NCBI GenBank assembly: GCA_964228555.1 | Contig: CAXQZU010000022.1 | Location: 15,695 to 79,694 of the forward strand | Source of the DNA: Planctomycetota bacterium | Lineage (GTDB): Bacteria > Planctomycetota > PLA2 > JAEUHO01 | Direction: 5' to 3' | DNA length: 64,000 bases | Part shown: piece by piece, positions 18,226-61,734 of the stretch | Layout: the number at the start of each line of letters is the position of its first letter | How positions within the stretch are numbered: position 1 is the first letter of the stretch | Notes under the pieces: generated by a model | Databases searched by the model: none | Told to the model about the DNA's origin: nothing | What the model saw: only the letters and a program-made list of their open reading frames with translations | Position numbers and translations under genes: made by a program

Positions 18226-18291
18226 CAGGCCAGCCTACGGGGTGCGGCCCACCCGGACGGCACCCCCCCTCCCTGGGTCGCGCCCTCTTGC

Positions 18292-18306
18292 GTTCGCAAT
18301 CCGTTC
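18292..18306 (+). promoter_or_regulatory. GTTC-N7-GTTC direct repeat (alphaproteobacterial-type LexA/SOS box) overlapping a weak putative -35/-10
   Basis: The sequence is GTTCGCAATCCGTTCGG, 17 nt upstream of the small ORF at 18323 and about 420 nt upstream of lexA. A near-identical motif occurs at 54738-54752. Confidence 0.55.
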
Positions 18307-18322
18307 GGTTAGGTTGTTCGTC

Positions 18323-18466
18323 ATGAGCAACATCACCCTGACAAGCCTGTACTCCCGCACCGTGGTTCGCCACTCCCGAGACGAGCGTGCCCGCCTCCTG
18401 CCCCGGGGCGAGGCCGGCTTCCTGCTCCTGCTCGTGGCGGCGATGGCCCTGGCGCTGTTCGCCTAG
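18323..18466 (+). CDS. small (47 aa) hydrophobic protein, possible SOS-controlled membrane peptide
   Basis: MSNITLTSLYSRTVVRHSRDERARLLPRGEAGFLLLLVAAMALALFA has a C-terminal TM helix. It lies in a locally low-GC stretch immediately downstream of the LexA-box-like repeat, in the same orientation as lexA. Confidence 0.45.
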   Translation: MSNITLTSLYSRTVVRHSRDERARLLPRGEAGFLLLLVAAMALALFA

Positions 18467-18626: not shown

Positions 18627-18661
18627 CCATCCACCGTCTCCATCCACCCTCTCCATCCACC
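18627..18661 (+). repeat. three tandem copies of CCATCCACC separated by 4-5 nt
   Basis: The sequence is CCATCCACCgtctcCATCCACCctctCCATCCACC, in the lexA 5' region. Confidence 0.7.
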
Positions 18662-18729
18662 CCCGAACAAAGCCAAAAGGTAGGCGGCCGTTCGGCCGAT
18701 CCAGCCTCGTAGCCGCAGGAGCCCGCACC

Positions 18730-19335
18730 GTGAACTACACCCCCAAGCAGCTGCAGATCATGAACTTCCTGCGGGACTACCGCCGGACGCACGGCACCTC
18801 GCCCACGCTGGAGGAGATCGGCGAGCAGATGGGCGTGCACCGGGTGACGGTGCACCAGCATGTCACGTCGCTGGAGAAGAAGGGCGCCATCCGCAAGCTG
18901 CCGCAGCGCTCGCGGTCGATCGAGATCCTCGACCGGAACTACCTGCCCGAGGCCACCGTGCCGGTGCTGGGCCGCATCGCGGCCGGCCGGCCCATCGAGG
19001 CCATGGAAGACAGCGAGCACTACACGCTCGAGGAGCTGCTGCCGATCGCGCCGGGCCAGGACACCTACATCCTGCGCGTGGTGGGCCAGTCCATGATCGG
19101 CGACCACATCGCAGACGGCGACCTGGTGATGGTCGAGCGCACCCATCCCGGCCGCGAGGGCGAGATCGTGGTGGCCGTGGTGGACAACGAGGCCACCCTC
19201 AAGCGCATGTACCGCGAGCCGGACGGCAGCGTGCGCCTGCAGCCCAGCAACGCCACCATGAGCCCCATCTACGTGCGCCCGCCCCAGCAGCTGGACATCC
19301 GCGGCGTGGTGCGTGGCGTGCTGCGCCGCTACTAG
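18730..19335 (+). CDS. lexA: LexA repressor
   Basis: Winged-HTH N-terminus (LTPKQLQIMNFLRDY...GTSPTLEEIGEQMG) and S24 peptidase C-terminus with an Ala-Gly cleavage site region and Ser/Lys dyad (VVGQSMIGDHIADGDLVMV ... ATLKRMY). GTG start. Confidence 0.93.
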   Translation: MNYTPKQLQIMNFLRDYRRTHGTSPTLEEIGEQMGVHRVTVHQHVTSLEKKGAIRKLPQRSRSIEILDRNYLPEATVPVLGRIAAGRPIEAMEDSEHYTLEELLPIAPGQDTYILRVVGQSMIGDHIADGDLVMVERTHPGREGEIVVAVVDNEATLKRMYREPDGSVRLQPSNATMSPIYVRPPQQLDIRGVVRGVLRRY

Positions 19336-24470: not shown

Positions 24471-27400
24471 TCAGCGCGCGGGCGGGCCGTCGAGGTTCGT
24501 GTTCGTGCGCAGGTCGAACAACGGCTGGAGGCGCTCGAACTCCTCGAGGAAGGTGGCCACCTTGCCATTCATGGCACCGTCGCGCGAGCCCACCGGCATG
24601 CGCATGCCGCGGGGCAGGTCGCGCTGGGCGCCGAAGACGCGCCGCGACATGTACTCCGAGTACGCACGGGGGCTGAACTCGGCCTTCGTGGGGTAGACAC
24701 GCTCGGCCACCCGCACCAGGAAGGCACAGCCGGTGCCGTCAGGCGCACGCTTCTCGTCACGCAGCGTCGCGCGCCCGAAGGTGCCCGGGCTGGCATCCGT
24801 GGTGTCGTTCTTCGCCTCGCCACGGCGCACGAGGCCGTAGCCCCCCTGCCGCACGAAGTTGCGCCGCAGCAGCTGCGCCTGCTCCAGCGCGCTGGCACCA
24901 GGCGCAGGCCGCGCCTGCGTCGGCACGCTGCTGCCGATGAACAGGCCGGTGCGCTCGTCGTGCACCACGGCCCCGGGGCGCGCCTTCTTCCAGGCCTCCA
25001 GCGCGGCCTCCCACCGGGTGTCCGCCTGGCCCTCGGCCACGACAGGAGCCTGCAGCACGTCGCGCTGGAAGGCGGCCAGCTCGCGTTCGGCGCGGTCGAG
25101 CTGGCGACGCTCCAGCCATCGCTCGAAGACCTGGTCCTGCACCTCCGCCAGGTCCGGGATGCGCTCGGCCGTCACCTGCAGCGTGCGGGCCACCACCTTC
25201 GTGAGGCGCTGGTTGAGCTGGATGGGGATCGAGGCCACGTCGCCGTCACGCTGGTTGCCGAGGTAGAGCGGCAGCTCGTCAAGGCCAGGCACGGCGCTGA
25301 TCTCGGCGCGCGTGAGCGACACCGCCGTCTTGTCGGCCTTGTCGGTCGTGTAGTACTCGAGGAAGCGGTGCCCGCGCGCGCGCTCGGCCTCGCCCGGCTG
25401 GTACTTGCCCAGCCGCTCCTCGGAGAGCAGGTCCACCAGCGTCACGCCATCGGCGGGTCGCGGGGCCATGCTCGTGGCCGCCGTGGCCTCCCACGCCTTG
25501 ATGGCCTCGCGGCTGGCCACGACCGCCTTCCAGTGGTGGTTGAGCACCCGCTCGAGGAACTCCTGGCGCACCAGGATCTCGCGCCAGCCCTGCTCCTCGT
25601 ACTCCTTGCGCAGCGGGTCGGGCGCGGCGCCCTCGGCCGGTGCCGGCGGGGCCGCCAGCCCGGGGAAGCAATCGCGGGACGGGACGCGCACCACGGCCTG
25701 CGCCGGCCAGCCCAGCTTGCGGGCCAGGTCCATGCCATGCCCGTCCTGGGGGTCACGGGGGTCCTTCGCGGTGAACTCGTAGCCCGACCCCGCCGTGCCA
25801 CGCCCAGACTGCCAGCGGTCGAACAGGGCCTGCTCGTCTTGCGGCCCGACGCGCTGCTCCGGGCAGTCTTCCCACAGGCGCTTGAGGGTGGCCTCGCTGA
25901 CCAACGGCAGGTGCATCACGAGGGCCTCGAAGCGACGCCGCATCGGCTGCTGGAAGGCCGAGCGCACGGCAGGCTGGGCGTAGAAGGCCTCGAGGTCGCT
26001 GGCGTTGCCGCCACGCAGGTCGTCGGCCGTCCCGGGCTGCCCGTCGGCGCCCACGCTGCTGGCCTCGTACACCCCCTGCTCGGCGTTGGCCAGCGACACG
26101 GTCACGGCGCGGCCCCAGGCATCCGTACGCCCGGCCGGGAGGTAGGCAGCGAGCACCGGGCCCAGCGCGACGCGCCCCCGCTCGGCCGTCACCACCGCCA
26201 CGATGTCGTCGGGCGTGCCTGCCACGCCGTCAGGTCCCGCAGAGGCGAGGCGGGGCGGCTCGTCGCCGGAGGCGCCGCCCGTGCCCAGCACGTAGGAAAG
26301 CGGGCGGTTCCAGCCGTCTTGCGGCACGCTGGAGAGCGCCGGCATCGCAGCCCCGCCCGCAGCACGCGCGGGCGCGCGCACGAGGTCCTCGAGGCTGCCC
26401 GGCCAAGCCCGGGGATCGCCGGCGCTGCGCCAGCGCACCAGGGCCTCGGCCACGCGGCCCACCGCCTTGTGCGTCTCCAGCTGGGCCTGCATGTCCAGGC
26501 CCACGTCATCCGCGGTCCCTTCCTTGCCGTCGGGGCCGTGGCTGCCCAGCACCGGATCGCCCGTGCCCAGCGTGTAGCGGAGGTCCTTGCCCCACGGGTC
26601 ACGCACGAGGTTCTCGGCCAGCGCCCAGCGCTGGTTCTGCACATCCTTGGCGGCCAGCACGGCGAGGGTGGCGGGCCACTCCCCCTTGGCGTCCTTGTAG
26701 TCGCGCGCCCGGTTGAGCGCGAGGCGCAGGCGCCGCACCGTCTCCACGACCGAGCGCAGCGGCTGCTCGGCCTCGGCCAGCGCCCGGCGCGTGGATTCCT
26801 CGGCTCGCACCTCGTCCGCGAACGAGGAGGCCTCCACGGCGAGATAGCGCAGGTCCACGCGCTCGCGGCTGGCCTTCCAGCCCTCGTAGGCCTGCGCGTA
26901 GGTCTGGTCGAAGCGCACCGGGTCCACGAGGCAGCTCAGCAGCTCGTCCTTGAGCACCACCCCGCGCACGACCTGCTCGAAGTCGGCCGGCGAGCGCCCC
27001 CACACCTGCGCGATGAAGCGCTCGTAGGCCTCGGGCGTCACCTCCAGCGAGGCCGTGCGCTCGTTGCTGGCCAGCACGGACTTGATGGCCCGGCCCAGCT
27101 GGGCCGGGCCGCAGCGGTAGCCAGCCTGCTCGGAGGCCCGCGCCAGCAGGGCATGCATCCACGCGACCTTGCGCATCGCGGGCGACTGGGAGCCGCGCAG
27201 GTAGCTGGCGTAGTCGATGGTCGGCATCCGCACCGTGGCCATGTACTGCTGGAACACCAGCAGCAGCCGCTGCATGTCCTCGTCGCTGATGGCGACGCGG
27301 TCAGGCTCGCCCACCAGCTGGAAGCTGCCCCCCAGTTCGGACTGCACCGCCGCGGGCGAGCCGCCCGCGCACTGGGTCACGGCTCCCGCCACCGAGAAGG

Positions 27401-53799: not shown

Positions 53800-54675
53800 C
53801 TAGCGCATGCCCAGCGCCACCTGCACGGCCTGCAGGTCGTCCCACACGGGGCGCTTGGCCTCGGGATTGCGCAGCAGGTAGGCCGGGTGGAAGGTCGGCA
53901 TCACGCGCCAGCCCTCCGGCGTGCGCATCCAGCTGCCCCGCAGGCTGGTGATGCCCCGCTCCGTGCCCAGCAAGGCGCGCGTGGCGTGATTGCCCAGCGC
54001 GAGGATGGGCGGCGGCCCCAGCAAGGCCAGCTGCTCCTTCATCCAGGGCGTGCAGGCTGCCACCTCCTGGGGCATGGGCGGACGGTTGGCTGGCGGGCGG
54101 CACTTGAGGACGTTGAGGATGAACACGTCGTGGTCGCGCGAGAGCCCGATGGCGGACAGCATGCGCGTGAGCAGCTGGCCGGCCGGCCCCACGAAAGGCA
54201 CCCCCTGTGCGTCCTCTTCCTCCCCCGGCGCCTCGCCCACGACCACCAGGCGGGGGGTGCGGCTGCCCGCCCCGAACACGGCCTGGGTCCGCGAGGCGCA
54301 CAGGCCGCAGCGCTGGCACCCGGCCACCTCGGCCTCCAGCGGACCCCAACGGGCAGGGTCCGGCGGACCGGCGGGGACGGCCCCGGGCGACACGACGACG
54401 GGCCCGGGGAGGCCGCTCTCCGGACGCCGCCCCGTGGCAGGCAGCGCGGGCCCTAAGCCACGCGGGCCCGTTCGCGGGCCGCTGCCGCCCCCTTGCCCCG
54501 GCCCACGGGCCTGCTGCGTGGCACGGCCCTGTCCCATGGCGCCGTGGGCCCCCGGCGGCACGGCCACCGTCGGCTGCGGCTCCTCGGCCGGCAAGTAGCG
54601 GGCTCCGGCGCCCCGTACCCACTCGACGTAGAAGAGGGCCTCGTCGAGCAGCGGATCAGGTGCGCCCGGCATCAC
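53800..54675 (-). CDS. family-4 (Fe-S, UdgA-type) uracil-DNA glycosylase with a Gly/Pro-rich N-terminal extension
   Basis: GCQRCGLC ... GEAPGEEEDAQGVPFVGPAG ... ILNVLKCRPPANR ... HPAYLLRN motifs. The true start may lie downstream of 54675. Confidence 0.8.
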   Translation of the reverse strand: MMPGAPDPLLDEALFYVEWVRGAGARYLPAEEPQPTVAVPPGAHGAMGQGRATQQARGPGQGGGSGPRTGPRGLGPALPATGRRPESGLPGPVVVSPGAVPAGPPDPARWGPLEAEVAGCQRCGLCASRTQAVFGAGSRTPRLVVVGEAPGEEEDAQGVPFVGPAGQLLTRMLSAIGLSRDHDVFILNVLKCRPPANRPPMPQEVAACTPWMKEQLALLGPPPILALGNHATRALLGTERGITSLRGSWMRTPEGWRVMPTFHPAYLLRNPEAKRPVWDDLQAVQVALGMR

Positions 54676-54733
54676 GGTGGCAGGCTAGCCCGGGCAACCG
54701 ACGGACCCTGGACAGGGCGGGCCGCCGCCTCGC

Positions 54734-54754
54734 ATGCGAACAAGATGCGAACAA
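54734..54754. promoter_or_regulatory. tandem ATGCGAACAA direct repeat containing GAAC-N7-GAAC (reverse complement GTTCGCATCTTGTTCGC); LexA-box-like, in the udg/secretin divergent region
   Basis: GCATGCGAACAAGATGCGAACAAATGG at 54732-54758, in a locally AT-richer intergenic stretch. Shares GTTCGCA-N4-GTTCG with the site at 18292-18306. About 60 nt upstream of the udg start on the minus strand. Confidence 0.5.
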
Positions 54755-54940
54755 ATGGCTGCGGGCCAGCAGCAAAAAGCCGGGATCGGGTGACGCGAGC
54801 GTGACACGCAGGCCGGACTCTTCCCTCGTCCAGGGTCCATGGGCAGGCCTGCATCGCGGCGCGCGCGCGCCGTCCCGACGCACGAGGGTTCGTCGGGGGC
54901 ATGCAGGCGTGCTCGTGTTCCCGCATGGAGCACACCGCGG

Positions 54941-57760
54941 ATGTCGAGCATCACCTCGTTCACGAACCTCCCTGCGTCGCGCCGTGTCCTTGGCATCGCG
55001 CTCTGCGTGCTGCTGGCCACGCCGCTGGCCGCGTGCCGGACCCACCGCCTCGGCGTGGAGCCCTACGGCCCCGCCGGCGAGGCCGGTGACGCGCCGGTCG
55101 CGCCCGCGCAGCCGGGCCCCGACACCGTGGTGGCCAGCGCTCAGCCCGAGGAGCAGCCCGCGGCTCCTGCGGCCGAGCCGCCGGCTGAGCCTGCGCCCGC
55201 CCCGGCGCCCGAGAAGACGCCCGAGCAGCAGCTGGAGGAGGCGCGTCGCGCCGCGCAGATCGCCAGCGAGCAGACCAAGTTCCTGGTCGGCCAGCAGCTG
55301 GCCAAGGCCCGCGAGGCGATGAGCGCCGGCAACATCGAGGCCGCCCGCGAGGCCTACGGCAAGGCGCTGGAGCTGGATCCGGGCAACAGCGAGGCCCTCG
55401 AGGGCTGGACCAACCTGACCTCGAACCGCCCCAGCTCCGTGGAGGGCTACCTCAAGGAGCAGCGTGCGCTCCAGCAGGTGCGCCGCCAGGAGGCCGTGGC
55501 GCGCGTGCGCAACCACCTCGAGCTGGGCCGCTCGCTCGAGTCGCGCGAGGAGTTTGCCGGCGCGGTGCAGGAGTACAACCGCGCGCTGGCGATCGTGAGC
55601 TGGTACGACGACACCAGCGACTTCGGCACCTCCGCCGCCGCGCTGCGTGACCTGATCGACAACGCCCAGCACAAGTCGGCCCTGGCCGAGCGCACCCGTC
55701 GCGAGGAGGCCCTGCGTGCCGCCCAGGTCGAGCGCGAGCGCGACCTGATGCGCACCCGCGAGCAGGCGCTGGGCAAGATCCAGGCCTACTTCGAGCAGGC
55801 CAACGTGGCCTTCCGCGAGGGCCGCTACGAGGCAGCCATCGACTACGCGCGCCAGGTGCTGCGCATCGACCCCACCAACCGCAGCGCCACGGGCATGATC
55901 AACGTCGCGCACGACGCCAAGCACATGGCCGCGCTCGACACGCACAAGCGCAACTTCGACGACCAGTGGAAGCGCGTCATGCAGCAGCTCGAGTTCGACA
56001 TGCTGCCGCAGACCAAGGTCGTGGAGTGGTCCGAGGACTGGCTGGACGGCATCGCCCAGCGCAAGCCCCGCGTGGTGGGCGACGCGGTGCCCACCGACGA
56101 GCTGGGCACCAACGGCGCCATCTACGCCGCGCTGAAGAGCAAGCGCGTGACGAACCTGCAGTGGGGTGACGACACCACGCTGCCCATGGCCGTGAGCTAC
56201 CTGCGCACGATGACCGGCCTGAACTTCTACATCACGCCCAAGGCGCAGACCGAGAAGGAGGAGGCCCGCGTGCCCCTCACGATCGACGACTACGCCGTGA
56301 GCGACATCCTCGACATCATGACCGAGCAGAACGGCCTCAAGTGGGAGGTGCGTGACGGCCTGGTGCGCATCACCACCGCCGAGGAGATCACCGGCTCGTA
56401 CATCCGCCGCTTCTTCGACATCAACGACCTGCAGGTCAAGATCCAGTCGCACCTGGGCCAGGAGATCAACCTGTTCCCCAGCAACTTCACGCCGCCCGAG
56501 CCGCCCGAGCTGGCCGAGCCCGTGGAGATGATCGCCCCCGAGCAGCTGCAGGAGCTGATCAAGGAGACGATCGGCGGGCCTGGCGCGTGGGAGGACCCCG
56601 CCATCCTCGAGGCCCGCAAGGGCCTGCTGATCGCCGTGAACACCCCCGAGGTGCTGGCGGACGTCGAGAAGCTGCTCAACGAGCTGCGCGCCAACACGGG
56701 CTTGCTCGTGAACCTCGAGGTGCGCTTCCTGACGGCCGAGGACAACTTCCTGCGCGACGTCGGCATCGACGTGCGCGGCCTGGGCCTGACCAACACGACG
56801 GCCGGCGTGCCCGGGCTGGGCACCTCGGTGACCCAGAACGACGTGTTCTTCGGCAACCCCTCCGCCCCCACGGGCTTCAGCAGCGCGCTGGGCCTGCAGC
56901 CCGAGCCCTCCTCGGTGGGCACGGCAGCGGACGCGGGCCTCTTCTACAACGACGGTGCGGACGGCCAGTACTCGGCACGCATGGAGAACCTCTTCGACGT
57001 GCTGCTGGGCAACCCGGAGGTCCTCACGGGCTCGGGCGGCCTCTCGTTCCAGCACACCTTCCTCGACGACACCGAGATGGAGGTGATCCTGCGCGCCGTC
57101 CAGAAGAGCGAGCGCATCCAGAACATCACCAGCCCGCGCATCACGGTCTACAACACCCAGCGCGCCAACGTGCAGGTGCTCAACCAGGTCTCGTACGTGC
57201 AGGACTACGAGGTCGAGATCGCGCAGGCGTCGAACATCGCCAACCCCGTGATCCAGACCATCCTCGACGGCATCGTGCTGGACGTGCGCCCCACGGTCTC
57301 GCAGAACCTGAAGTTCGTGACGCTCGAGCTGCGTCCCACGGTGGCCGTGCTCACCCGCCCGATCGCGACGTTCACCACGTCGCTGGCCTCGGGCCCGGTG
57401 ACGGCCAACGCCCCCATCACGATCCAGCTGCCCGAGCTGCGCGTGAGCCGCGTGCGCACGACGGTGACGATGCCCGACCGCGCCACCCTGCTGCTGGGCG
57501 GCCTGAAGTACTACGAGCAGGAGACGATGACCAGCACGACGCCCATCCTGGGCGACATCCCGATCCTGTCGCTGCTGTTCTCGCGCAAGGGCCACTACGT
57601 CAACCGCCGCAACCTGCTGATCCTCATCACGGCCGAGATCGTGCCGCTCGAGGAGTACGCGCCCAAGGGCGAGCTCGACGTGCAGCCCCTGCCGCCCGAG
57701 GCGTTCACGTGGCGCCCGGTGGCCGAGCCGGTCGCGGCGCCTGCGCCGGCCTGCAAGTAG
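54941..57760 (+). CDS. secretin (T2SS/T4P/T3SS family) with an N-terminal TPR-lipoprotein (pilotin-like) domain
   Basis: Lipoprotein signal (VLGIALCVLLATPLAAC). Pro/Ala-rich linker, three or more TPR-like motifs (AYGKALELDPGNSEAL; AIDYARQVLRIDPTN), secretin N domains (LKWEVRDGLVRITT; LLIAVNTPEVLADVEKLLNELRA) and the C-terminal secretin core (LLVNLEVRFLTAE ... TTPILGDIPILSLLFSRKG ... NLLILITAEIV). Confidence 0.9.
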   Translation: MSSITSFTNLPASRRVLGIALCVLLATPLAACRTHRLGVEPYGPAGEAGDAPVAPAQPGPDTVVASAQPEEQPAAPAAEPPAEPAPAPAPEKTPEQQLEEARRAAQIASEQTKFLVGQQLAKAREAMSAGNIEAAREAYGKALELDPGNSEALEGWTNLTSNRPSSVEGYLKEQRALQQVRRQEAVARVRNHLELGRSLESREEFAGAVQEYNRALAIVSWYDDTSDFGTSAAALRDLIDNAQHKSALAERTRREEALRAAQVERERDLMRTREQALGKIQAYFEQANVAFREGRYEAAIDYARQVLRIDPTNRSATGMINVAHDAKHMAALDTHKRNFDDQWKRVMQQLEFDMLPQTKVVEWSEDWLDGIAQRKPRVVGDAVPTDELGTNGAIYAALKSKRVTNLQWGDDTTLPMAVSYLRTMTGLNFYITPKAQTEKEEARVPLTIDDYAVSDILDIMTEQNGLKWEVRDGLVRITTAEEITGSYIRRFFDINDLQVKIQSHLGQEINLFPSNFTPPEPPELAEPVEMIAPEQLQELIKETIGGPGAWEDPAILEARKGLLIAVNTPEVLADVEKLLNELRANTGLLVNLEVRFLTAEDNFLRDVGIDVRGLGLTNTTAGVPGLGTSVTQNDVFFGNPSAPTGFSSALGLQPEPSSVGTAADAGLFYNDGADGQYSARMENLFDVLLGNPEVLTGSGGLSFQHTFLDDTEMEVILRAVQKSERIQNITSPRITVYNTQRANVQVLNQVSYVQDYEVEIAQASNIANPVIQTILDGIVLDVRPTVSQNLKFVTLELRPTVAVLTRPIATFTTSLASGPVTANAPITIQLPELRVSRVRTTVTMPDRATLLLGGLKYYEQETMTSTTPILGDIPILSLLFSRKGHYVNRRNLLILITAEIVPLEEYAPKGELDVQPLPPEAFTWRPVAEPVAAPAPACK

Positions 57761-57802
57761 GCCGCGGCACCCCGCGCGCACGGCGCGGGCCTGCCCACCC
57801 CA

Positions 57803-57840
57803 CGAGCCCCGGGGCACGCCCCCGGGGCTCGTCTCGTTGG
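57803..57840 (+). terminator. rho-independent-terminator-like hairpin downstream of the secretin gene
   Basis: Perfect 12-bp GC stem CGAGCCCCGGGG-cacgc-CCCCGGGGCTCG followed by TCTCGTTGG, 43 nt after the secretin stop. Confidence 0.6.
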
Positions 57841-58023
57841 TGGCCGCTCGCATGGTGCGCAGCGCGGCCGAGGGCTGGCGCCGAGGTCGCACGGGCGGGC
57901 CGCGTTGCCCGCCGCTCCCCCCATCCGTAGAATGCGCCCGCCTTGGCCCGCACGCGCGAGCCAGCGCGGGACGGTGCAGCCCCCGGGGCCCGCACCGCCC
58001 TCCCCTGCCCCTGGAGCCCATCC

Positions 58024-61000
58024 ATGGTGTTCACGCGCCGCTTCCTGCGCCTCTCCGGCGTCCTGCTGCTGCCCGCCCTGCTGCTGGCGGGCGCACCGCG
58101 CGCCGAGGCCGGTGCGGACGACTTCGAGTTCGGCCAGAAGCTGGCCCAGGCGCGCTTCTTCAAGCTGGCCCGCCGCGTCTACGAGGGCATGCTCACGGCG
58201 CAGGGCAGCAGCGACACGCAGAAGGACCTCGCGCGCTACGGGCTCGCCACGCTCGGCCACCAGGAGGCGCTCAGCGCCGGCGCCCGCAGCGAGGTGCCCT
58301 TCGCCGAGGTGATCGCGCTCTACAACACGGCCGCCGAGCAGGTGGACGCCTTCGCCCAGAAGAACCCCAACCACCCCAAGGCACGCGACGCGCGGCTGCT
58401 GAGCGGCAAGATCCGCCTCGACGTCGTCAACTGGTGCCGCGACCTGCTGGACCTGCCTGAGATGCTGGCGTCGCGCAAGGCCTCGCCCGGCGAGGTGGCC
58501 TCGGCCGCGCGCAAGGCCGTCGACGACGCCACCTCGCACTTCGAGGCCCTCAAGGGCTCGGGCGGCGACCTGGCCGAGCTGGCGGGGTACTACTGGACCA
58601 CGGCCCAGTACTACAAGGCCCTGACGCTGGACGGCGGCAGCGCAGCCCAGATGGCCGCCTTGCGCGACGCCGAGACCAAGCTGGACGACTACATCAGCGA
58701 GAACGACGGCAAGCTGCTGGCCGTGTTCGCGCAGGACATGCTGGGCCTGACGCTGGCCGAGCGCGCGAAGCACACGCCCGGCGACGAGGAGCGCGCGCAG
58801 CTCTACAGCAAGGCGCTGACCTGGTTCCAGACCTGCATCGACCAGGAGTACATGGACGCGGACACGCTCACGGTCATCACCAATGGCTACCAGCACTACG
58901 GCAAGGCCTGCCTCGAGGCGGGCCGCATCGGCACGCGCAACTTCTGGCGCGAGGGCGTCAACGTGCTGGGCGAGATGCTGGCCAAGGTGCCGACCTCGGG
59001 CAAGACCGGCAACGGCATCCGCGCCATGCTGGTGCTGGGCGACCTGCAGAAGGCGCTGGGCGACTCCTCGGCCGCGCTGAACACGTACAAGGACGCATCG
59101 GACCGGGCCAGCCAGATCGACCAGCGCGGCCTGGCAGCAGAGGCCGACAAGCGCGTGCGCGAGGCCACGCGCGGCGGCGCCGTGCAGATCACCGACATCA
59201 ACATCGCGCGCAAGGTGGCGCAGAGCAACCTCGACGAGAAGCGCTGGGAAGAGGCGATCTCGGGCTTCCAGGACGTGATCGCGCTGGCGCCCAGCACGCC
59301 GCAGGCCTTCGTCGAGATGGTGTGGCCGTCGTGGGAGAAGATTGCCACGGCCTACCGCGAGCTGGGCGATCCGCTGTCGGCCGCGATGGCCTACGAGGCC
59401 ATCCACGAGGCATGGCTGGCCGGCCTCATCTCGCACAAGAAGGGTGACGAGAACGACAACAACATGCGCCGCGCCGGCGGCAATCGCAAGGCGGGCATCC
59501 GCCTGCTGGACGAGCTGGCCACGAAGACCGGATCCAAGGTGTTCCGCGAGGCCATGAAGCGCGCCGACGCAGGCTTTGCCACGGACTTCCCCGACCACCC
59601 GGACAGCAAGGACAGCGTGCTGCGCGTGGCGCTGGACAAGTACAAGGCGGCGCGCGACGCCAAGCGGGCGAAGGCGGCCGGCTGGCGCGCACAGTTCGAG
59701 GAGGCGCGCAAGCTGTTCGAGGCCGAGGCCCGCAACGCCAAGAGCCAGAACCAGGACGCGGCGGCCTCCTACGTGATCCAGATCGACTACCAGATGGTCT
59801 ACGACCCCGGCACGGTGGCGCCCCCGGCCGAGGGCCGCAAGGCGGCCGAGCGCGGGCTGGCCTTCTCCAGCGAGATGCTTGCCTTCTGGGCCTCGGAGGC
59901 CGGCCAGCAGAAGATCAAGGACTTCCCCACGCTGGCCGGCAAGCGCACCTCGGCCGTGAAGGACGTGCGCCTGCGCCGTGGTGACCTGCTCAAGGCGCTG
60001 GACCGCTGGGACGAGGTGATCTCCGAGATGACCGCGATGCGCTCCGAGGTGGGCGACGGCGAGGAGGGGGACGACGCGCAGGCCCTCGTGGTGGAGGCCC
60101 ACGTCGAGAAGGGCAGCACGGCTGCCGCCGACGAGGCGCTCAAGGTGCTGCTCAAGCGCGGCAAGCACCCGGCCATCCCGGCGCTGGTGGGCAAGGTGGC
60201 TGGCACCTTCGACGCCCAGTTCCGCGAGCTGACCAAGCAGTTCAACACGAAGAACGAGGAGCTCAACGGCACCCGCGAGGACCGCAGCACGGGCATCAAC
60301 GCGCGCATGCGCACGACCGAGGCCCGCTACAACGACCTGCTGGCGCAGAAGGTGAGCCGCCAGCAGGTGGTGGACGTGCACCGCCGCGACATCGAGGCGT
60401 GGCGCAAGGACCCCGAGACCCGCAAGGGCCTGACCGAGAAGACGGTGAAGGAGCTCGAGGAGAAGACCATCCCCGAGCTCGACGCCCTGGTCGCGAGCCT
60501 GACGAGCGAGATCGGCTCGCTGGACACGCAGATGCAGGCCCTGCGCACGCGTTCGGAAGCCCTGCAGGGCGAGATCCGCGACATCACCCTCGCGCAGTAC
60601 GCGCCGCTCAAGGAGGCGGTCAAGCGCTTCGACCTGGGCCTGCAGAGCGCGCTGGACGCCGGCGTGACGCCCAAGGCCGCCGAGCTGGGCAACATCGCCG
60701 CCCGCTGGTACGCCGCGGCCCGCAACGCCAAGGGCGAGGAGGGAGACTGGCAGAAGGCCCGCCTGCGCTACGAGCAGTTCATGGACCTGGCCGAGGTGAA
60801 GGCGCTGCCTGACACCGACGCGAGCAAGCGGGGCGCGCAGGCCAAGCTGGGGCGCATCTACTCGCACTTCTCCGAGGTGGAGAAGGATGCCGGCCGCCGC
60901 GCCGAGACCGTGCGCAAGGCCATCCTGCTGCTGGAGCAGACGCTGGCAGCCCGGCCGGAGAACAACGAGATCCTGCTGGGCTTGCTGGGCGGGCGCTACG

Positions 61001-61734
61001 GCGTGGTGGTGTGGGAGAACCCGGTCGAACGGGGCCCGGTCTACCGCTTCATCGTGCCCAAGGCGGCGGACCTGGCGGCCTTCAAGGCAGCCGTGGCCCG
61101 CCTCGGCACGCCGGAGAGCCCGGTTCCGCTGCCGCGCGTGGGCGACGAGGCCCGCATGGTGGCCTATCGACGGGCCCTGGCCACGTGGAAGGACAGCGTG
61201 CCCACGATGGAGAGTGCCATGCAGGAGCTGCTGCTCAAGGACTTGCGCGGCTCGGGCCTGGATGCCGCCACGTGGCGCGAGCTGGGCAACACGGACCGCG
61301 AGTACCGCACCTCGCTGGCCTCGGCCTACTCCGAGAGCGGCGAGGACGCCGACCTCGGCAAGGGGGACGTGGTGCTGGCCACGCTGCTGCAGGGCCCGCT
61401 GTCCGTCGAGGACTTCAGCGACGAGTACTGGGATGTCTCGACCCTCGTGCTGCGCCACTGGGCCAACCACAGCGAGCGCCTCTCGGCCGCCGGTGGGGTG
61501 GCCGCCAAGGCCAGCGAGCTGCGCAAGCGCGCGAGGCAGTTCATCACGGGCCGCACCTCGGTGGCCAGCGTGCCGCTGGCCAACGGCGTGCGCGAGGAGT
61601 GGCAGCGCCTGGTCGAGCGCTTCAACCGCGGCCTGCGAGCCGAGGGCGCGCCCGAGATCAGCGTCAGCCTCGAGCGCATGGCCCCCCCGGCCCCGGCGGC
61701 ACCTGCCGGCACGCAGGAAGGGACTGGCAAGTGA
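58024..61734 (+). CDS. very large secreted alpha-helical/TPR-like hypothetical protein
   Basis: 1236 aa. Signal peptide MVFTRRFLRLSGVLLLPALLLAGAPRAEA. Long coiled-coil/TPR-like composition. ATG verified at 58024. Confidence 0.75.
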   Translation: MVFTRRFLRLSGVLLLPALLLAGAPRAEAGADDFEFGQKLAQARFFKLARRVYEGMLTAQGSSDTQKDLARYGLATLGHQEALSAGARSEVPFAEVIALYNTAAEQVDAFAQKNPNHPKARDARLLSGKIRLDVVNWCRDLLDLPEMLASRKASPGEVASAARKAVDDATSHFEALKGSGGDLAELAGYYWTTAQYYKALTLDGGSAAQMAALRDAETKLDDYISENDGKLLAVFAQDMLGLTLAERAKHTPGDEERAQLYSKALTWFQTCIDQEYMDADTLTVITNGYQHYGKACLEAGRIGTRNFWREGVNVLGEMLAKVPTSGKTGNGIRAMLVLGDLQKALGDSSAALNTYKDASDRASQIDQRGLAAEADKRVREATRGGAVQITDINIARKVAQSNLDEKRWEEAISGFQDVIALAPSTPQAFVEMVWPSWEKIATAYRELGDPLSAAMAYEAIHEAWLAGLISHKKGDENDNNMRRAGGNRKAGIRLLDELATKTGSKVFREAMKRADAGFATDFPDHPDSKDSVLRVALDKYKAARDAKRAKAAGWRAQFEEARKLFEAEARNAKSQNQDAAASYVIQIDYQMVYDPGTVAPPAEGRKAAERGLAFSSEMLAFWASEAGQQKIKDFPTLAGKRTSAVKDVRLRRGDLLKALDRWDEVISEMTAMRSEVGDGEEGDDAQALVVEAHVEKGSTAAADEALKVLLKRGKHPAIPALVGKVAGTFDAQFRELTKQFNTKNEELNGTREDRSTGINARMRTTEARYNDLLAQKVSRQQVVDVHRRDIEAWRKDPETRKGLTEKTVKELEEKTIPELDALVASLTSEIGSLDTQMQALRTRSEALQGEIRDITLAQYAPLKEAVKRFDLGLQSALDAGVTPKAAELGNIAARWYAAARNAKGEEGDWQKARLRYEQFMDLAEVKALPDTDASKRGAQAKLGRIYSHFSEVEKDAGRRAETVRKAILLLEQTLAARPENNEILLGLLGGRYGVVVWENPVERGPVYRFIVPKAADLAAFKAAVARLGTPESPVPLPRVGDEARMVAYRRALATWKDSVPTMESAMQELLLKDLRGSGLDAATWRELGNTDREYRTSLASAYSESGEDADLGKGDVVLATLLQGPLSVEDFSDEYWDVSTLVLRHWANHSERLSAAGGVAAKASELRKRARQFITGRTSVASVPLANGVREEWQRLVERFNRGLRAEGAPEISVSLERMAPPAPAAPAGTQEGTGK

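What the first reader, a model, noticed from the sequence alone, without database searches (positions are those of the whole stretch)
18288..18323. GTTC-N7-GTTC direct repeat (alphaproteobacterial-type LexA box) upstream of a small ORF and lexA, with a second near-identical copy upstream of uracil-DNA glycosylase
Site 1 is GTTCGCAATCCGTTCGG at 18292-18306. Site 2 on the opposite strand at 54738-54752 is GTTCGCATCTTGTTCGC. They share GTTCGCA-N4-GTTCG, in a window otherwise too GC-rich for such sequences to recur by chance. Site 1 overlaps a weak TTGCGT-N16-TAGGTT promoter-like element in front of the small ORF that precedes lexA. Site 2 sits about 60 nt upstream of a DNA-repair gene (udg) in a divergent promoter region, which fits an SOS regulon. 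The box type is the direct-repeat class described for Alphaproteobacteria, not the CTRHAMRYBYGTTCAGS box reported for Myxococcus.
Basis: partly seen in the sequence, partly recalled or inferred. Interest (0 to 1): 0.65.

Follow-up and report, generated by a model that had tools for sequence, protein, structure and literature searches.

The report
Putative LexA half-site repeats in Planctomycetota
Two short same-strand GTTCG repeats in a high-GC planctomycete, one on the promoter of a small-protein/lexA operon and one upstream of a uracil-DNA glycosylase gene, are real, non-random and probably bind the DNA-damage repressor LexA, but the exact GTTC-N7-GTTC layout is found only in this lineage and binding is untested.

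Summary
GTTC-N7-GTTC occurs only at 18292-18306(+) and 54738-54752(-). The shared 12-base pattern GTTCGCA-N4-GTTCG has 2 hits against 0.00 expected.

The organism is a Planctomycetota MAG, not a myxobacterium or an alphaproteobacterium.

Site 1 lies on a promoter (TTGCGT-N16-TAGGTT) conserved in 22 relatives. This promoter drives a conserved, apparently leaderless small membrane-protein gene followed by a canonical self-cleaving lexA.

The first GTTCG is conserved in 15 of 22 relatives. The second is GTnAG in 20 of 22, and it is GTTC only in the window and its closest relative. Site 2 is kept, with one mismatch, only in the nearest udg relative.

Relatives with an essentially identical LexA DNA-binding domain carry other arrangements upstream of lexA: canonical CGAAC-N4-GTTCG palindromes in 3 genomes, GAAC-N7-GAAC in 4, and a conserved single CGAACAA in most.

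My reading is that GTTCG/CGAAC is the LexA half-site of this clade, and that the window carries a lineage-specific array of such units rather than a fixed alphaproteobacterial-type box.

The parts
18288..18315 (+). Promoter P1 of the small-ORF/lexA operon: -35 TTGCGT (18288-18293), 16-nt spacer, -10 TAGGTT (18310-18315)
   Evidence: Aligned in 22 relatives. TTGCG, GT..GGT and TAGnnT are invariant or at least 90% conserved. It is not called by the generic sigma-70 scan.
18292..18296 (+). GTTCG unit a, overlapping the -35 and the start of the spacer.
   Evidence: GTTCG is present at this position in 15 of 22 orthologous promoters.
18303..18307 (+).
   Evidence: GTTCG occurs only in the window and L001. 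Elsewhere this position reads GTTAG (10 loci), GTAAG (6) or GTCAG (4), and the A is at least 90% conserved.
18316..18320 (+). GTTCG unit c, between the -10 and the start codon, at the predicted transcription start
   Evidence: The same '-10 followed by GTTCG' layout occurs in L022, L023, L025 and L041 at P1, and at the udg promoters of L127 and L128.
18323..18466 (+). Small ORF (47 aa) with a C-terminal hydrophobic helix. It appears leaderless: the ATG lies 7 nt after the -10 and there is no Shine-Dalgarno sequence.
   Evidence: An ORF starts right after P1 in about 20 relatives. It shares an N-terminal M[DES][IN]T motif, has RRPFPR.G in most copies, and ends in a hydrophobic tail such as ..LALFA. 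It has no Pfam or NCBIfam hit.
18627..18662 (+). 13-nt tandem repeat (CCATCCACCCTCT, 2.8 copies) between the small ORF and lexA
   Evidence: Found by TRF. Relatives carry unrelated tandem repeats at the same place.
18664..18721 (+). lexA-proximal conserved block P2: CGAACAA (18664-18670), AAAGG (18676-18680), 15-nt spacer containing GTTCG (18690-18694), CCGAT (18696-18700), and Shine-Dalgarno AGGAG (18717-18721)
   Evidence: Aligned in 18 relatives. AACA, AAG and CCGAT are invariant and the 15-16 nt spacing is rigid. There is no consensus RNA fold and no Rfam hit.
18730..19335 (+). lexA (201 aa), canonical self-cleaving repressor
   Evidence: TIGR00498 at 169.8 bits against a cutoff of 110.95. 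Pfam LexA_DNA_bind plus Peptidase_S24. Ala85-Gly86, Ser121 and Lys158 are invariant in 26 homologues. It aligns full-length to solved LexA structures.
54734..54754 (-). Site 2: tandem 11-bp repeat TTGTTCGCAT[C/G] x2 on the minus strand. It holds two GTTCG units in the udg orientation, 63-77 nt upstream of the udg start.
   Evidence: It is conserved as GTTCGCATGGTGTTTG in L122 only, as an island in poorly conserved flanks.
54682..54687 (-). Candidate udg -10 (TAGCCT), 6 nt before the GTG start
   Evidence: L122 has TAGGCT at the same place. This is inferred and was not tested.
53800..54675 (-). Family-4 uracil-DNA glycosylase with an N-terminal extension. It is the first gene of a conserved udg / GT2 / methyltransferase / asparagine-synthase row.
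   Evidence: TIGR00758 at 1.2e-55. Synteny is shown. Alignment.

Best explanation
The window comes from a high-GC Planctomycetota bacterium.

Site 1 is part of promoter P1. P1 transcribes a leaderless small membrane-protein gene and, with no terminator in between, lexA. The three same-strand GTTCG units sit at about -31, -20 and -7 relative to the predicted start. They are most likely half-sites of the LexA operator. LexA bound there would occlude RNA polymerase. After DNA damage, RecA-stimulated self-cleavage at Ala85-Gly86 (catalytic Ser121 and Lys158) would release the operon.

Site 2 is a second pair of the same unit, also at 11-bp spacing, that arose in this lineage upstream of udg. It probably puts udg, or the divergent promoter region, under the same factor.

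The unit recognised is GTTCG/CGAAC. The GTTC-N7-GTTC spacing is one of several arrangements used in this clade, not a fixed alphaproteobacterial-type box.

Shown here: the sequences, their non-randomness, the promoter and gene conservation, and the canonical LexA. Inferred: LexA binding, repression, the leaderless start, and co-transcription.
For: - Exact GTTCGCA-N4-GTTCG occurs twice against 0.00 expected. CGAACAA is concentrated at P1, P2 and site 2.
- P1 is conserved in 22 genomes and carries GTTCG next to the -35 in 15 of them. The more distant sub-clade (L022, L023, L025, L041) instead has GTTCG right after the -10. So every lineage keeps a unit inside the core promoter, but at a shifting position, as operators do.
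- L004, L005 and L013 carry perfect CGAAC-N4-GTTCG palindromes upstream of lexA. The LexA DNA-binding domain is essentially invariant across all 28 loci. The window's LexA should therefore read the same half-site.
- GAAC-N7-GAAC recurs upstream of lexA in L010/L011 and L025/L041. Direct repeats with a 7-nt gap are about 12-fold enriched upstream of lexA.
- All intergenic hits of GTTCG-N6-GTT[CA]G in 257 kb of clade DNA lie at P1, P2 or site 2. The only other 3 hits lie outside these regulatory regions. One (L015) was checked and lies inside a histidine-kinase ORF; the other two (L019, L127) were not checked.
- udg promoters: 6 of 7 genomes have CGAAC/GTTCG within -130..+10, against 5 of 33 control genes. 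L127 and L128 have it at the start site.
- Site 2 is a conserved island between the window and L122.
- LexA is canonical.
- In the sister phylum Verrucomicrobia, LexA binds TGTTC-based sites, including tandem sites in which only one half-site is kept (PMC4951493).
Against: - Unit b is GTnAG, not GTTC, in 20 of 22 relatives. It sits in what looks like an extended -10 element (GTnAGGT-TAGnnT), so much of site 1's conservation is promoter conservation.
- Site 2 is missing in L124, L127, L128, L129 and L133. It lies upstream of the likely udg core promoter.
- This udg is a plain family-4 enzyme in a glycosyltransferase operon, not the UDG-domain operon that is LexA-regulated in Verrucomicrobia.
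- A LexA that reads palindromes in relatives has not been shown to read direct repeats.
- The udg enrichment test depends on a window chosen post hoc. With -100..0 it gives P=0.09.
- No recA, uvrA or imuAB promoter could be examined.
Confidence: 0.5

Rival explanations
1. This organism's LexA dimer recognises a fixed GTTC-N7-GTTC direct repeat, exactly as in Alphaproteobacteria, and this box defines its SOS regulon.
For: - There are two perfect instances in the window, and both are intergenic.
- The same spacing is used upstream of lexA in four other genomes.
- A 7-nt gap is the commonest direct spacing upstream of lexA.
Against: - The second half-site is not conserved at P1.
- Relatives with an identical DNA-binding domain use N4 palindromes or a lone CGAACAA.
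- LexA here is 201 aa, and its nearest relatives are all Planctomycetota. There is no sign of the lateral acquisition of an alphaproteobacterial lexA that my recollection of the literature assigns to Acidobacteria.
Confidence: 0.12
2. The repeats are bound by another regulator, not LexA. An example is an OmpR/PhoB-type winged-helix response regulator, a family that characteristically reads direct repeats with 10-11 bp periodicity.
For: - Both sites have an 11-bp period on one strand.
- The same udg/secretin spacer holds another conserved period-11 direct repeat, GTGACG-N5-GTGACA.
- The window encodes several two-component and sigma-54 regulators.
- Site 2 sits at about -70, a typical activator position.
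Against: - The unit equals the classical LexA half-site.
- It is tied to lexA promoters across the clade, including perfect Cheo-type palindromes.
- No candidate regulator was identified.
Confidence: 0.15
3. There is no operator function. Site 1 is simply the core promoter (a -35 extension and an extended -10) with lineage-specific substitutions. Site 2 is a neutral 11-bp slippage duplication that happens to resemble it.
For: - Most conserved columns of site 1 belong to promoter-like elements.
- The two units of site 2 are identical over 10 nt, as a recent duplication would be.
- Site 2 is lineage-specific.
- Tandem repeats are common in these intergenic regions.
Against: - A second exact 12-base match has an expectation of 0.00.
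- The duplication predates the window/L122 split and is better kept than its flanks.
- TTCG, conserved just beyond the -35 hexamer, has no standard promoter role.
- GTTCG recurs at other positions of P1, P2 and udg promoters.
Confidence: 0.2

Closest known systems
Alphaproteobacterial LexA box, GTTC-N7-GTTC direct repeat (Rhodobacter, Caulobacter; cited in PMC4951493 and PMC12700426)
   Same: Two GTTC tetramers on one strand, 7 nt apart, on the lexA operon promoter and upstream of a repair gene.
   Different: - The host is Planctomycetota.
- The second half is not conserved in orthologous promoters.
- The same LexA domain sits behind palindromic boxes in relatives.
- Binding is untested.
Firmicutes/Actinobacteria LexA (Cheo) box, CGAAC-N4-GTTCG
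   Same: The half-site CGAAC/GTTCG is identical. Perfect instances occur upstream of lexA in three relatives (L004, L005, L013).
   Different: The window has no good palindrome. The best matches have 1 mismatch, number 2 against 1.24 expected, and are not conserved. Its units are in direct orientation.
Verrucomicrobia LexA motif TGTTC-N4-GAACA, with tandem degenerate sites (PMC4951493)
   Same: - It comes from the same PVC superphylum.
- The half-site is TGTTC-like; site 2 and unit c read TTGTTCG.
- Tandem sites there keep only one half-site.
- A UDG-domain gene belongs to that regulon.
   Different: - No TGTTC-N4-GAACA occurs in the window.
- The UDG here is family 4, not TIGR03915.
- The orientation here is direct.
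SOS-induced small membrane proteins encoded next to lexA or under LexA control (YneA, SosA, ChiZ, SidA, TisB). This comparison is from my own knowledge.
   Same: A small protein with one hydrophobic helix, encoded beside lexA, behind a promoter that carries LexA-type half-sites.
   Different: - There is no sequence similarity.
- It is co-directional with lexA rather than divergent.
- Its function is unknown.
- Most Planctomycetota lack FtsZ, the usual target of such inhibitors.

Membership tests
Alphaproteobacterial-type LexA box (GTTC-N7-GTTC) | Two GTTC tetramers in direct orientation separated by 7 nt | tested here: met
   18292-18306(+) and 54738-54752(-). These are the only two in 64 kb.
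Alphaproteobacterial-type LexA box (GTTC-N7-GTTC) | Both half-sites conserved in orthologous lexA promoters of related genomes | tested here: not met
   The first half is GTTCG in 15 of 22 promoters. The second half is GTTC in only 2 of 22 (window and L001), with a nearly invariant A elsewhere.
Alphaproteobacterial-type LexA box (GTTC-N7-GTTC) | Present upstream of core SOS genes (recA, uvrA, imuAB/dnaE2, ssb) genome-wide | not testable with these tools
   None of these genes is in the window.
Alphaproteobacterial-type LexA box (GTTC-N7-GTTC) | Cognate LexA belongs to, or was acquired from, the alphaproteobacterial LexA lineage | tested here: not met
   The named sources among the 120 best homologues, and all 41 genome loci, are Planctomycetota at 33-100% identity. 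No direct comparison with an alphaproteobacterial LexA sequence was run.
Alphaproteobacterial-type LexA box (GTTC-N7-GTTC) | Bound by LexA in vitro or in vivo | not testable with these tools
   This needs EMSA, footprinting or ChIP.
LexA operator in general (autoregulated lexA) | A bona fide self-cleaving LexA is encoded downstream | tested here: met
   TIGR00498 scores above its cutoff. Ala-Gly, Ser and Lys are invariant.
LexA operator in general (autoregulated lexA) | The motif overlaps the core promoter of the lexA transcription unit | tested here: met
   Units a, b and c overlap the -35, the spacer and the predicted start of conserved promoter P1. The transcription start itself is inferred.
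Firmicutes/Actinobacteria-type LexA box (CGAAC-N4-GTTCG) | A palindromic box in the lexA promoter | tested here: not met
   The window has no perfect box, and the two 1-mismatch hits are at chance level. The feature is met in relatives L004, L005 and L013.
Myxococcus xanthus LexA box (CTRHAMRYBYGTTCAGS) | The box is present near lexA | tested here: not met
   There are 0 hits at up to 2 mismatches in the window.

The most novel reading that the evidence does not exclude
In this Planctomycetota clade a single, invariant LexA DNA-binding domain uses GTTCG units in interchangeable layouts: period-11 direct repeats, N4 palindromes, and single units. This would be a living example of the transition between palindromic and direct-repeat LexA motifs. 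LexA would also control a leaderless small membrane protein co-transcribed with lexA, which could be a DNA-damage checkpoint effector in bacteria that mostly lack FtsZ.
Probability: 0.2. Interest if true: 0.65.

Novelty: new member of a known kind. Interest (0 to 1): 0.4.

Why it matters
The searchable literature describes no LexA-binding motif or SOS regulon for Planctomycetota. One paper notes only that planctomycete LexA does not use the E. coli box (PMC3108266). The 2016 Verrucomicrobia study states that SOS was undocumented elsewhere in the PVC superphylum (PMC4951493).

If the GTTCG units are LexA sites, three things follow:
- This locus gives a starting motif for defining that regulon.
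- It shows one LexA domain working with several half-site arrangements, which bears on how LexA motifs evolve.
- It points to a conserved small membrane protein as a new SOS-linked gene.

As it stands, this is a plausible but unproven operator prediction.

Tried and rejected
- **Other LexA motifs in the window.** The Myxococcus box has 0 hits. The Verrucomicrobia TGTTC-N4-GAACA has 0 hits. The canonical palindrome has only two 1-mismatch hits, at chance level. The hit at 18356 is not conserved in L001, and the one at 54879 is part of a hairpin / Shine-Dalgarno-like stretch.
- **RNA element explanations for the lexA leader.** Rfam gave nothing. RNAalifold predicted no pairs on 18 aligned P2 blocks. 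A minus-strand terminator-like hairpin is not conserved.
- **Metagenome scan for udg.** It returned only distant family-4 UDGs (at most 60% identity), and these show no LexA-type boxes upstream.
- **GTTCG cluster at 24495-24540.** It lies near the 3' end of a long ORF and I took it to be coding.
- **The L015 hit.** It lies inside a histidine-kinase ORF.
- **Other SOS genes in the window.** None was found.
- **Solved structures.** The solved full-length or DNA-binding-domain LexA entries that I looked at in the PDB read non-GAAC motifs, to my knowledge, so the recognition helix could not be compared with a GAAC binder.
- **Unused search.** I ran no further search on the small ORF or on an alphaproteobacterial LexA, because no genomic context could be retrieved afterwards.

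Full report
**1. Observation**

GTTC-N7-GTTC occurs only twice in the 64-kb, 74.7% G+C window, at 18292-18306(+) and 54738-54752(-), against 0.32 expected. The stricter shared patterns are far beyond chance:
- GTTCG-N6-GTTCG: 2 hits against 0.06 expected.
- GTTCGCA-N4-GTTCG: 2 hits against 0.00 expected, with 0 of 100 shuffles giving any hit.

Site 1 has a third same-strand GTTCG at 18316-18320. Site 2 is a tandem 11-bp duplication, ATGCGAACAA twice on the + strand. The heptamer CGAACAA occurs 5 times in the window, and four of these are at site 1, the lexA-proximal block and site 2.

**2. Genes and organism**

- lexA (18730-19335) is canonical. It matches TIGR00498 above the cutoff and has the Pfam domains LexA_DNA_bind and Peptidase_S24. 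The Ala85-Gly86 cleavage site, Ser121 and Lys158 are invariant in 26 homologues.
- The gene next to site 2 is a family-4 uracil-DNA glycosylase (TIGR00758). It is not the TIGR03915 type that is LexA-regulated in Verrucomicrobia.
- Named sources among the LexA homologues (98% to about 45% identity), and all 41 genome loci, are Planctomycetota MAGs. The host is therefore a planctomycete, not a myxobacterium or an alphaproteobacterium.
- No other classical SOS gene lies in the window.

**3. Site 1 in context**

In 22 relatives the same promoter-like element precedes an ORF that starts 7-12 nt after the -10 and has no Shine-Dalgarno sequence. The consensus is cTTGCGTTCGC-N5-GTnAGGT-TAGnnT.

That ORF encodes a variable small protein of 46-209 aa. 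It has a conserved N-terminus, an RRPFPR.G motif in most copies, and a C-terminal hydrophobic helix. The window's 47-aa ORF (18323-18466) is a short member of this family. It has no match in Pfam or NCBIfam. No plus-strand terminator separates it from lexA.

Within this promoter:
- The first GTTCG, which extends beyond the -35 hexamer, is present in 15 of 22 genomes.
- The second unit is GTTAG, GTAAG or GTCAG in 20 of 22. It is GTTCG only in the window and L001, whose LexA is 90% identical. The C replaces an A that is at least 90% conserved. At 87% and 86% LexA identity (L130, L132) this unit already reads GTTA and GTCA.

**4. Other arrangements in the clade**

Directly upstream of lexA there is a second conserved block: CGAACAA, then AAAGG, a rigid 15-16 nt spacer, CCGAT, and the Shine-Dalgarno sequence. 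It shows no consensus RNA structure and no Rfam match.

Three variations on this block stand out:
- In L010/L011 and L025/L041 the CGAAC is part of GAAC-N7-GAACGAAC.
- In L024 and L022 the gap is 8 nt.
- In L004, L005 and L013 the upstream CGAACAA is missing. Instead, perfect palindromes TACGAAC-N4-GTTCGTA or CGAAC-N4-GTTCG lie downstream of CCGAT.

The more distant sub-clade (L022, L023, L025, L041) has a TTGACA-N17-TAnnnT promoter followed immediately by GTTCG.

Residues 23-68 of LexA, the DNA-binding domain, are essentially identical in all 28 loci. One protein domain therefore faces GTTCG/CGAAC units in direct, inverted and single arrangements, at shifting positions around two conserved promoter-like elements. 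That mobility is what I expect of operator half-sites rather than of core-promoter elements.

Two counts support this:
- Direct GAAC/GTTC pairs with a 7-nt gap number 8 in 16.8 kb upstream of lexA, against 5 in 132 kb of flanks.
- Every intergenic hit of GTTCG-N6-GTT[CA]G in 257 kb of clade DNA is at P1, P2 or site 2. Three further hits lie outside these regions. One (L015) was confirmed inside a histidine-kinase ORF; the other two were not checked.

**5. Site 2 in context**

The arrangement of a divergent secretin gene followed by udg, GT2, methyltransferase and asparagine synthase genes is conserved.

The repeat survives only in L122, whose UDG is 80% identical. There it reads GTTCGCATGGTGTTTG and forms a conserved island between poorly aligned flanks. 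It is absent in L124, L127, L128, L129 and L133.

A likely udg -10 (TAGCCT, 6 nt before the GTG start, also present in L122) puts site 2 at about -70, outside the core promoter.

Two further observations link udg to the GTTCG unit:
- L127 and L128 carry GTTCG right after a TAGnAT hexamer at the udg start. This is the same layout as unit c of P1. In 257 kb of clade DNA, 'TAnnnT followed within 3 nt by GTTCG' occurs only at lexA-operon and udg promoters.
- CGAAC/GTTCG lies within -130..+10 of udg in 6 of 7 genomes, against 5 of 33 control genes (P=7e-4). That window was chosen after seeing the data. With -100..0 the result is 3 of 7 against 4 of 33, P=0.09.

Generic family-4 udg genes from other phyla show no LexA-type boxes upstream.

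**6. Literature**

GTTC-N7-GTTC is the accepted alphaproteobacterial LexA motif, and GAAC-N4-GTTC is the Firmicutes/Actinobacteria motif. Verrucomicrobia use TGTTC-N4-GAACA, often in tandem with a degenerate site that keeps only one half. In that phylum a UDG-domain operon is LexA-regulated (PMC4951493; PMC12700426).

I found no description of a Planctomycetota LexA motif. The only relevant statement is that planctomycete LexA does not use the E. coli box (PMC3108266).

**7. Interpretation**

The best-supported reading is that GTTCG/CGAAC is the LexA half-site in this clade, and that the window's lineage has accumulated an array of such units. There are three on P1, overlapping the -35, the spacer and the start, and two upstream of udg.

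The strict claim of an alphaproteobacterial-type box fails two membership tests: conservation of the second half-site, and LexA lineage.

Two rivals remain open:
- A different regulator that reads period-11 direct repeats.
- Pure promoter conservation at site 1 plus a neutral slippage duplication at site 2.

The decisive data are missing. These are LexA binding, and the motif upstream of recA, uvrA and imuAB.

**8. Verdict**

This is an ordinary kind of element, a probable LexA operator, in a phylum where the motif is undefined. Interest is moderate.

Noticed in passing
window 18627-18662; same position in L001, L004, L008, L010, L014, L016, L018, L019, L020, L024, L025: Most genomes of the clade carry a short tandem repeat (8-39 nt units, 2-9 copies) between the small ORF stop and the lexA-proximal block. 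The unit sequences are unrelated between genomes. This looks like a hypervariable minisatellite at a fixed position.
   Followed up: partly
window 18664-18700: The block CGAACAA ... AAAGG-N15-CCGAT directly upstream of lexA has rigid spacing and invariant AACA, AAG and CCGAT in 18 relatives. It has no RNA fold and no Rfam hit. It could be a second promoter for an alternative sigma factor. Its function is unexplained.
   Followed up: partly
window 54790-54806 (+); all udg loci L122, L124, L127-L129, L133: A period-11 direct repeat, GTGACG-N5-GTGACA (TGTCAC-N5-CGTCAC in the udg orientation), is conserved in the secretin/udg spacer of all seven relatives. It is much better conserved than site 2 and looks like a regulator site.
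   Followed up: no
L026-L038, 60-130 nt upstream of lexA: A more distant Planctomycetota group has LexA 45-48% identical, with recognition helix STITVFEH instead of HRVTVHQH. Its conserved lexA promoter carries three same-strand TTAGG-like units at 0, 11 and about 21 bp, flanking a TATATT -10. The TTAGG just before the -10 matches the GTTAGG of P1 in the close clade.
   Followed up: partly
window 18323-18466 and orthologues: The small-protein family upstream of lexA has start codons 7-12 nt after the -10 and no Shine-Dalgarno sequence, so it appears leaderless. Many copies have internal in-frame tandem repeats. Length varies from 46 to 209 aa, while the C-terminal helix is kept. In L016, L017, L020 and L024 the frame appears broken.
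   Followed up: partly
window 53800-54675 (-) and alignment A3: The family-4 UDG carries a variable N-terminal extension with a conserved EALLYLEW.RGAGGR.LPA motif. It heads a conserved row with GT2 glycosyltransferase, methyltransferase and asparagine synthase genes, which is unusual company for a repair enzyme.
   Followed up: no
window 54870-54895 (+): An inverted repeat CCGACG-N10-CGTCGG contains CGCACGAGGGTTCG, one mismatch from a Cheo box. L122 keeps the stem with a different loop. It is probably a 5'-leader hairpin or Shine-Dalgarno region of the secretin gene.
   Followed up: partly
window 24471-45301 and 54941-61734: This is a large cluster of type II secretion / type IV pilus-like genes. 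It includes a pseudopilin G domain, PilM, secretins with TPR domains, N-methylation-motif proteins, FHA-domain proteins, and a sigma-54 activator with FHA and GAF domains.
   Followed up: no
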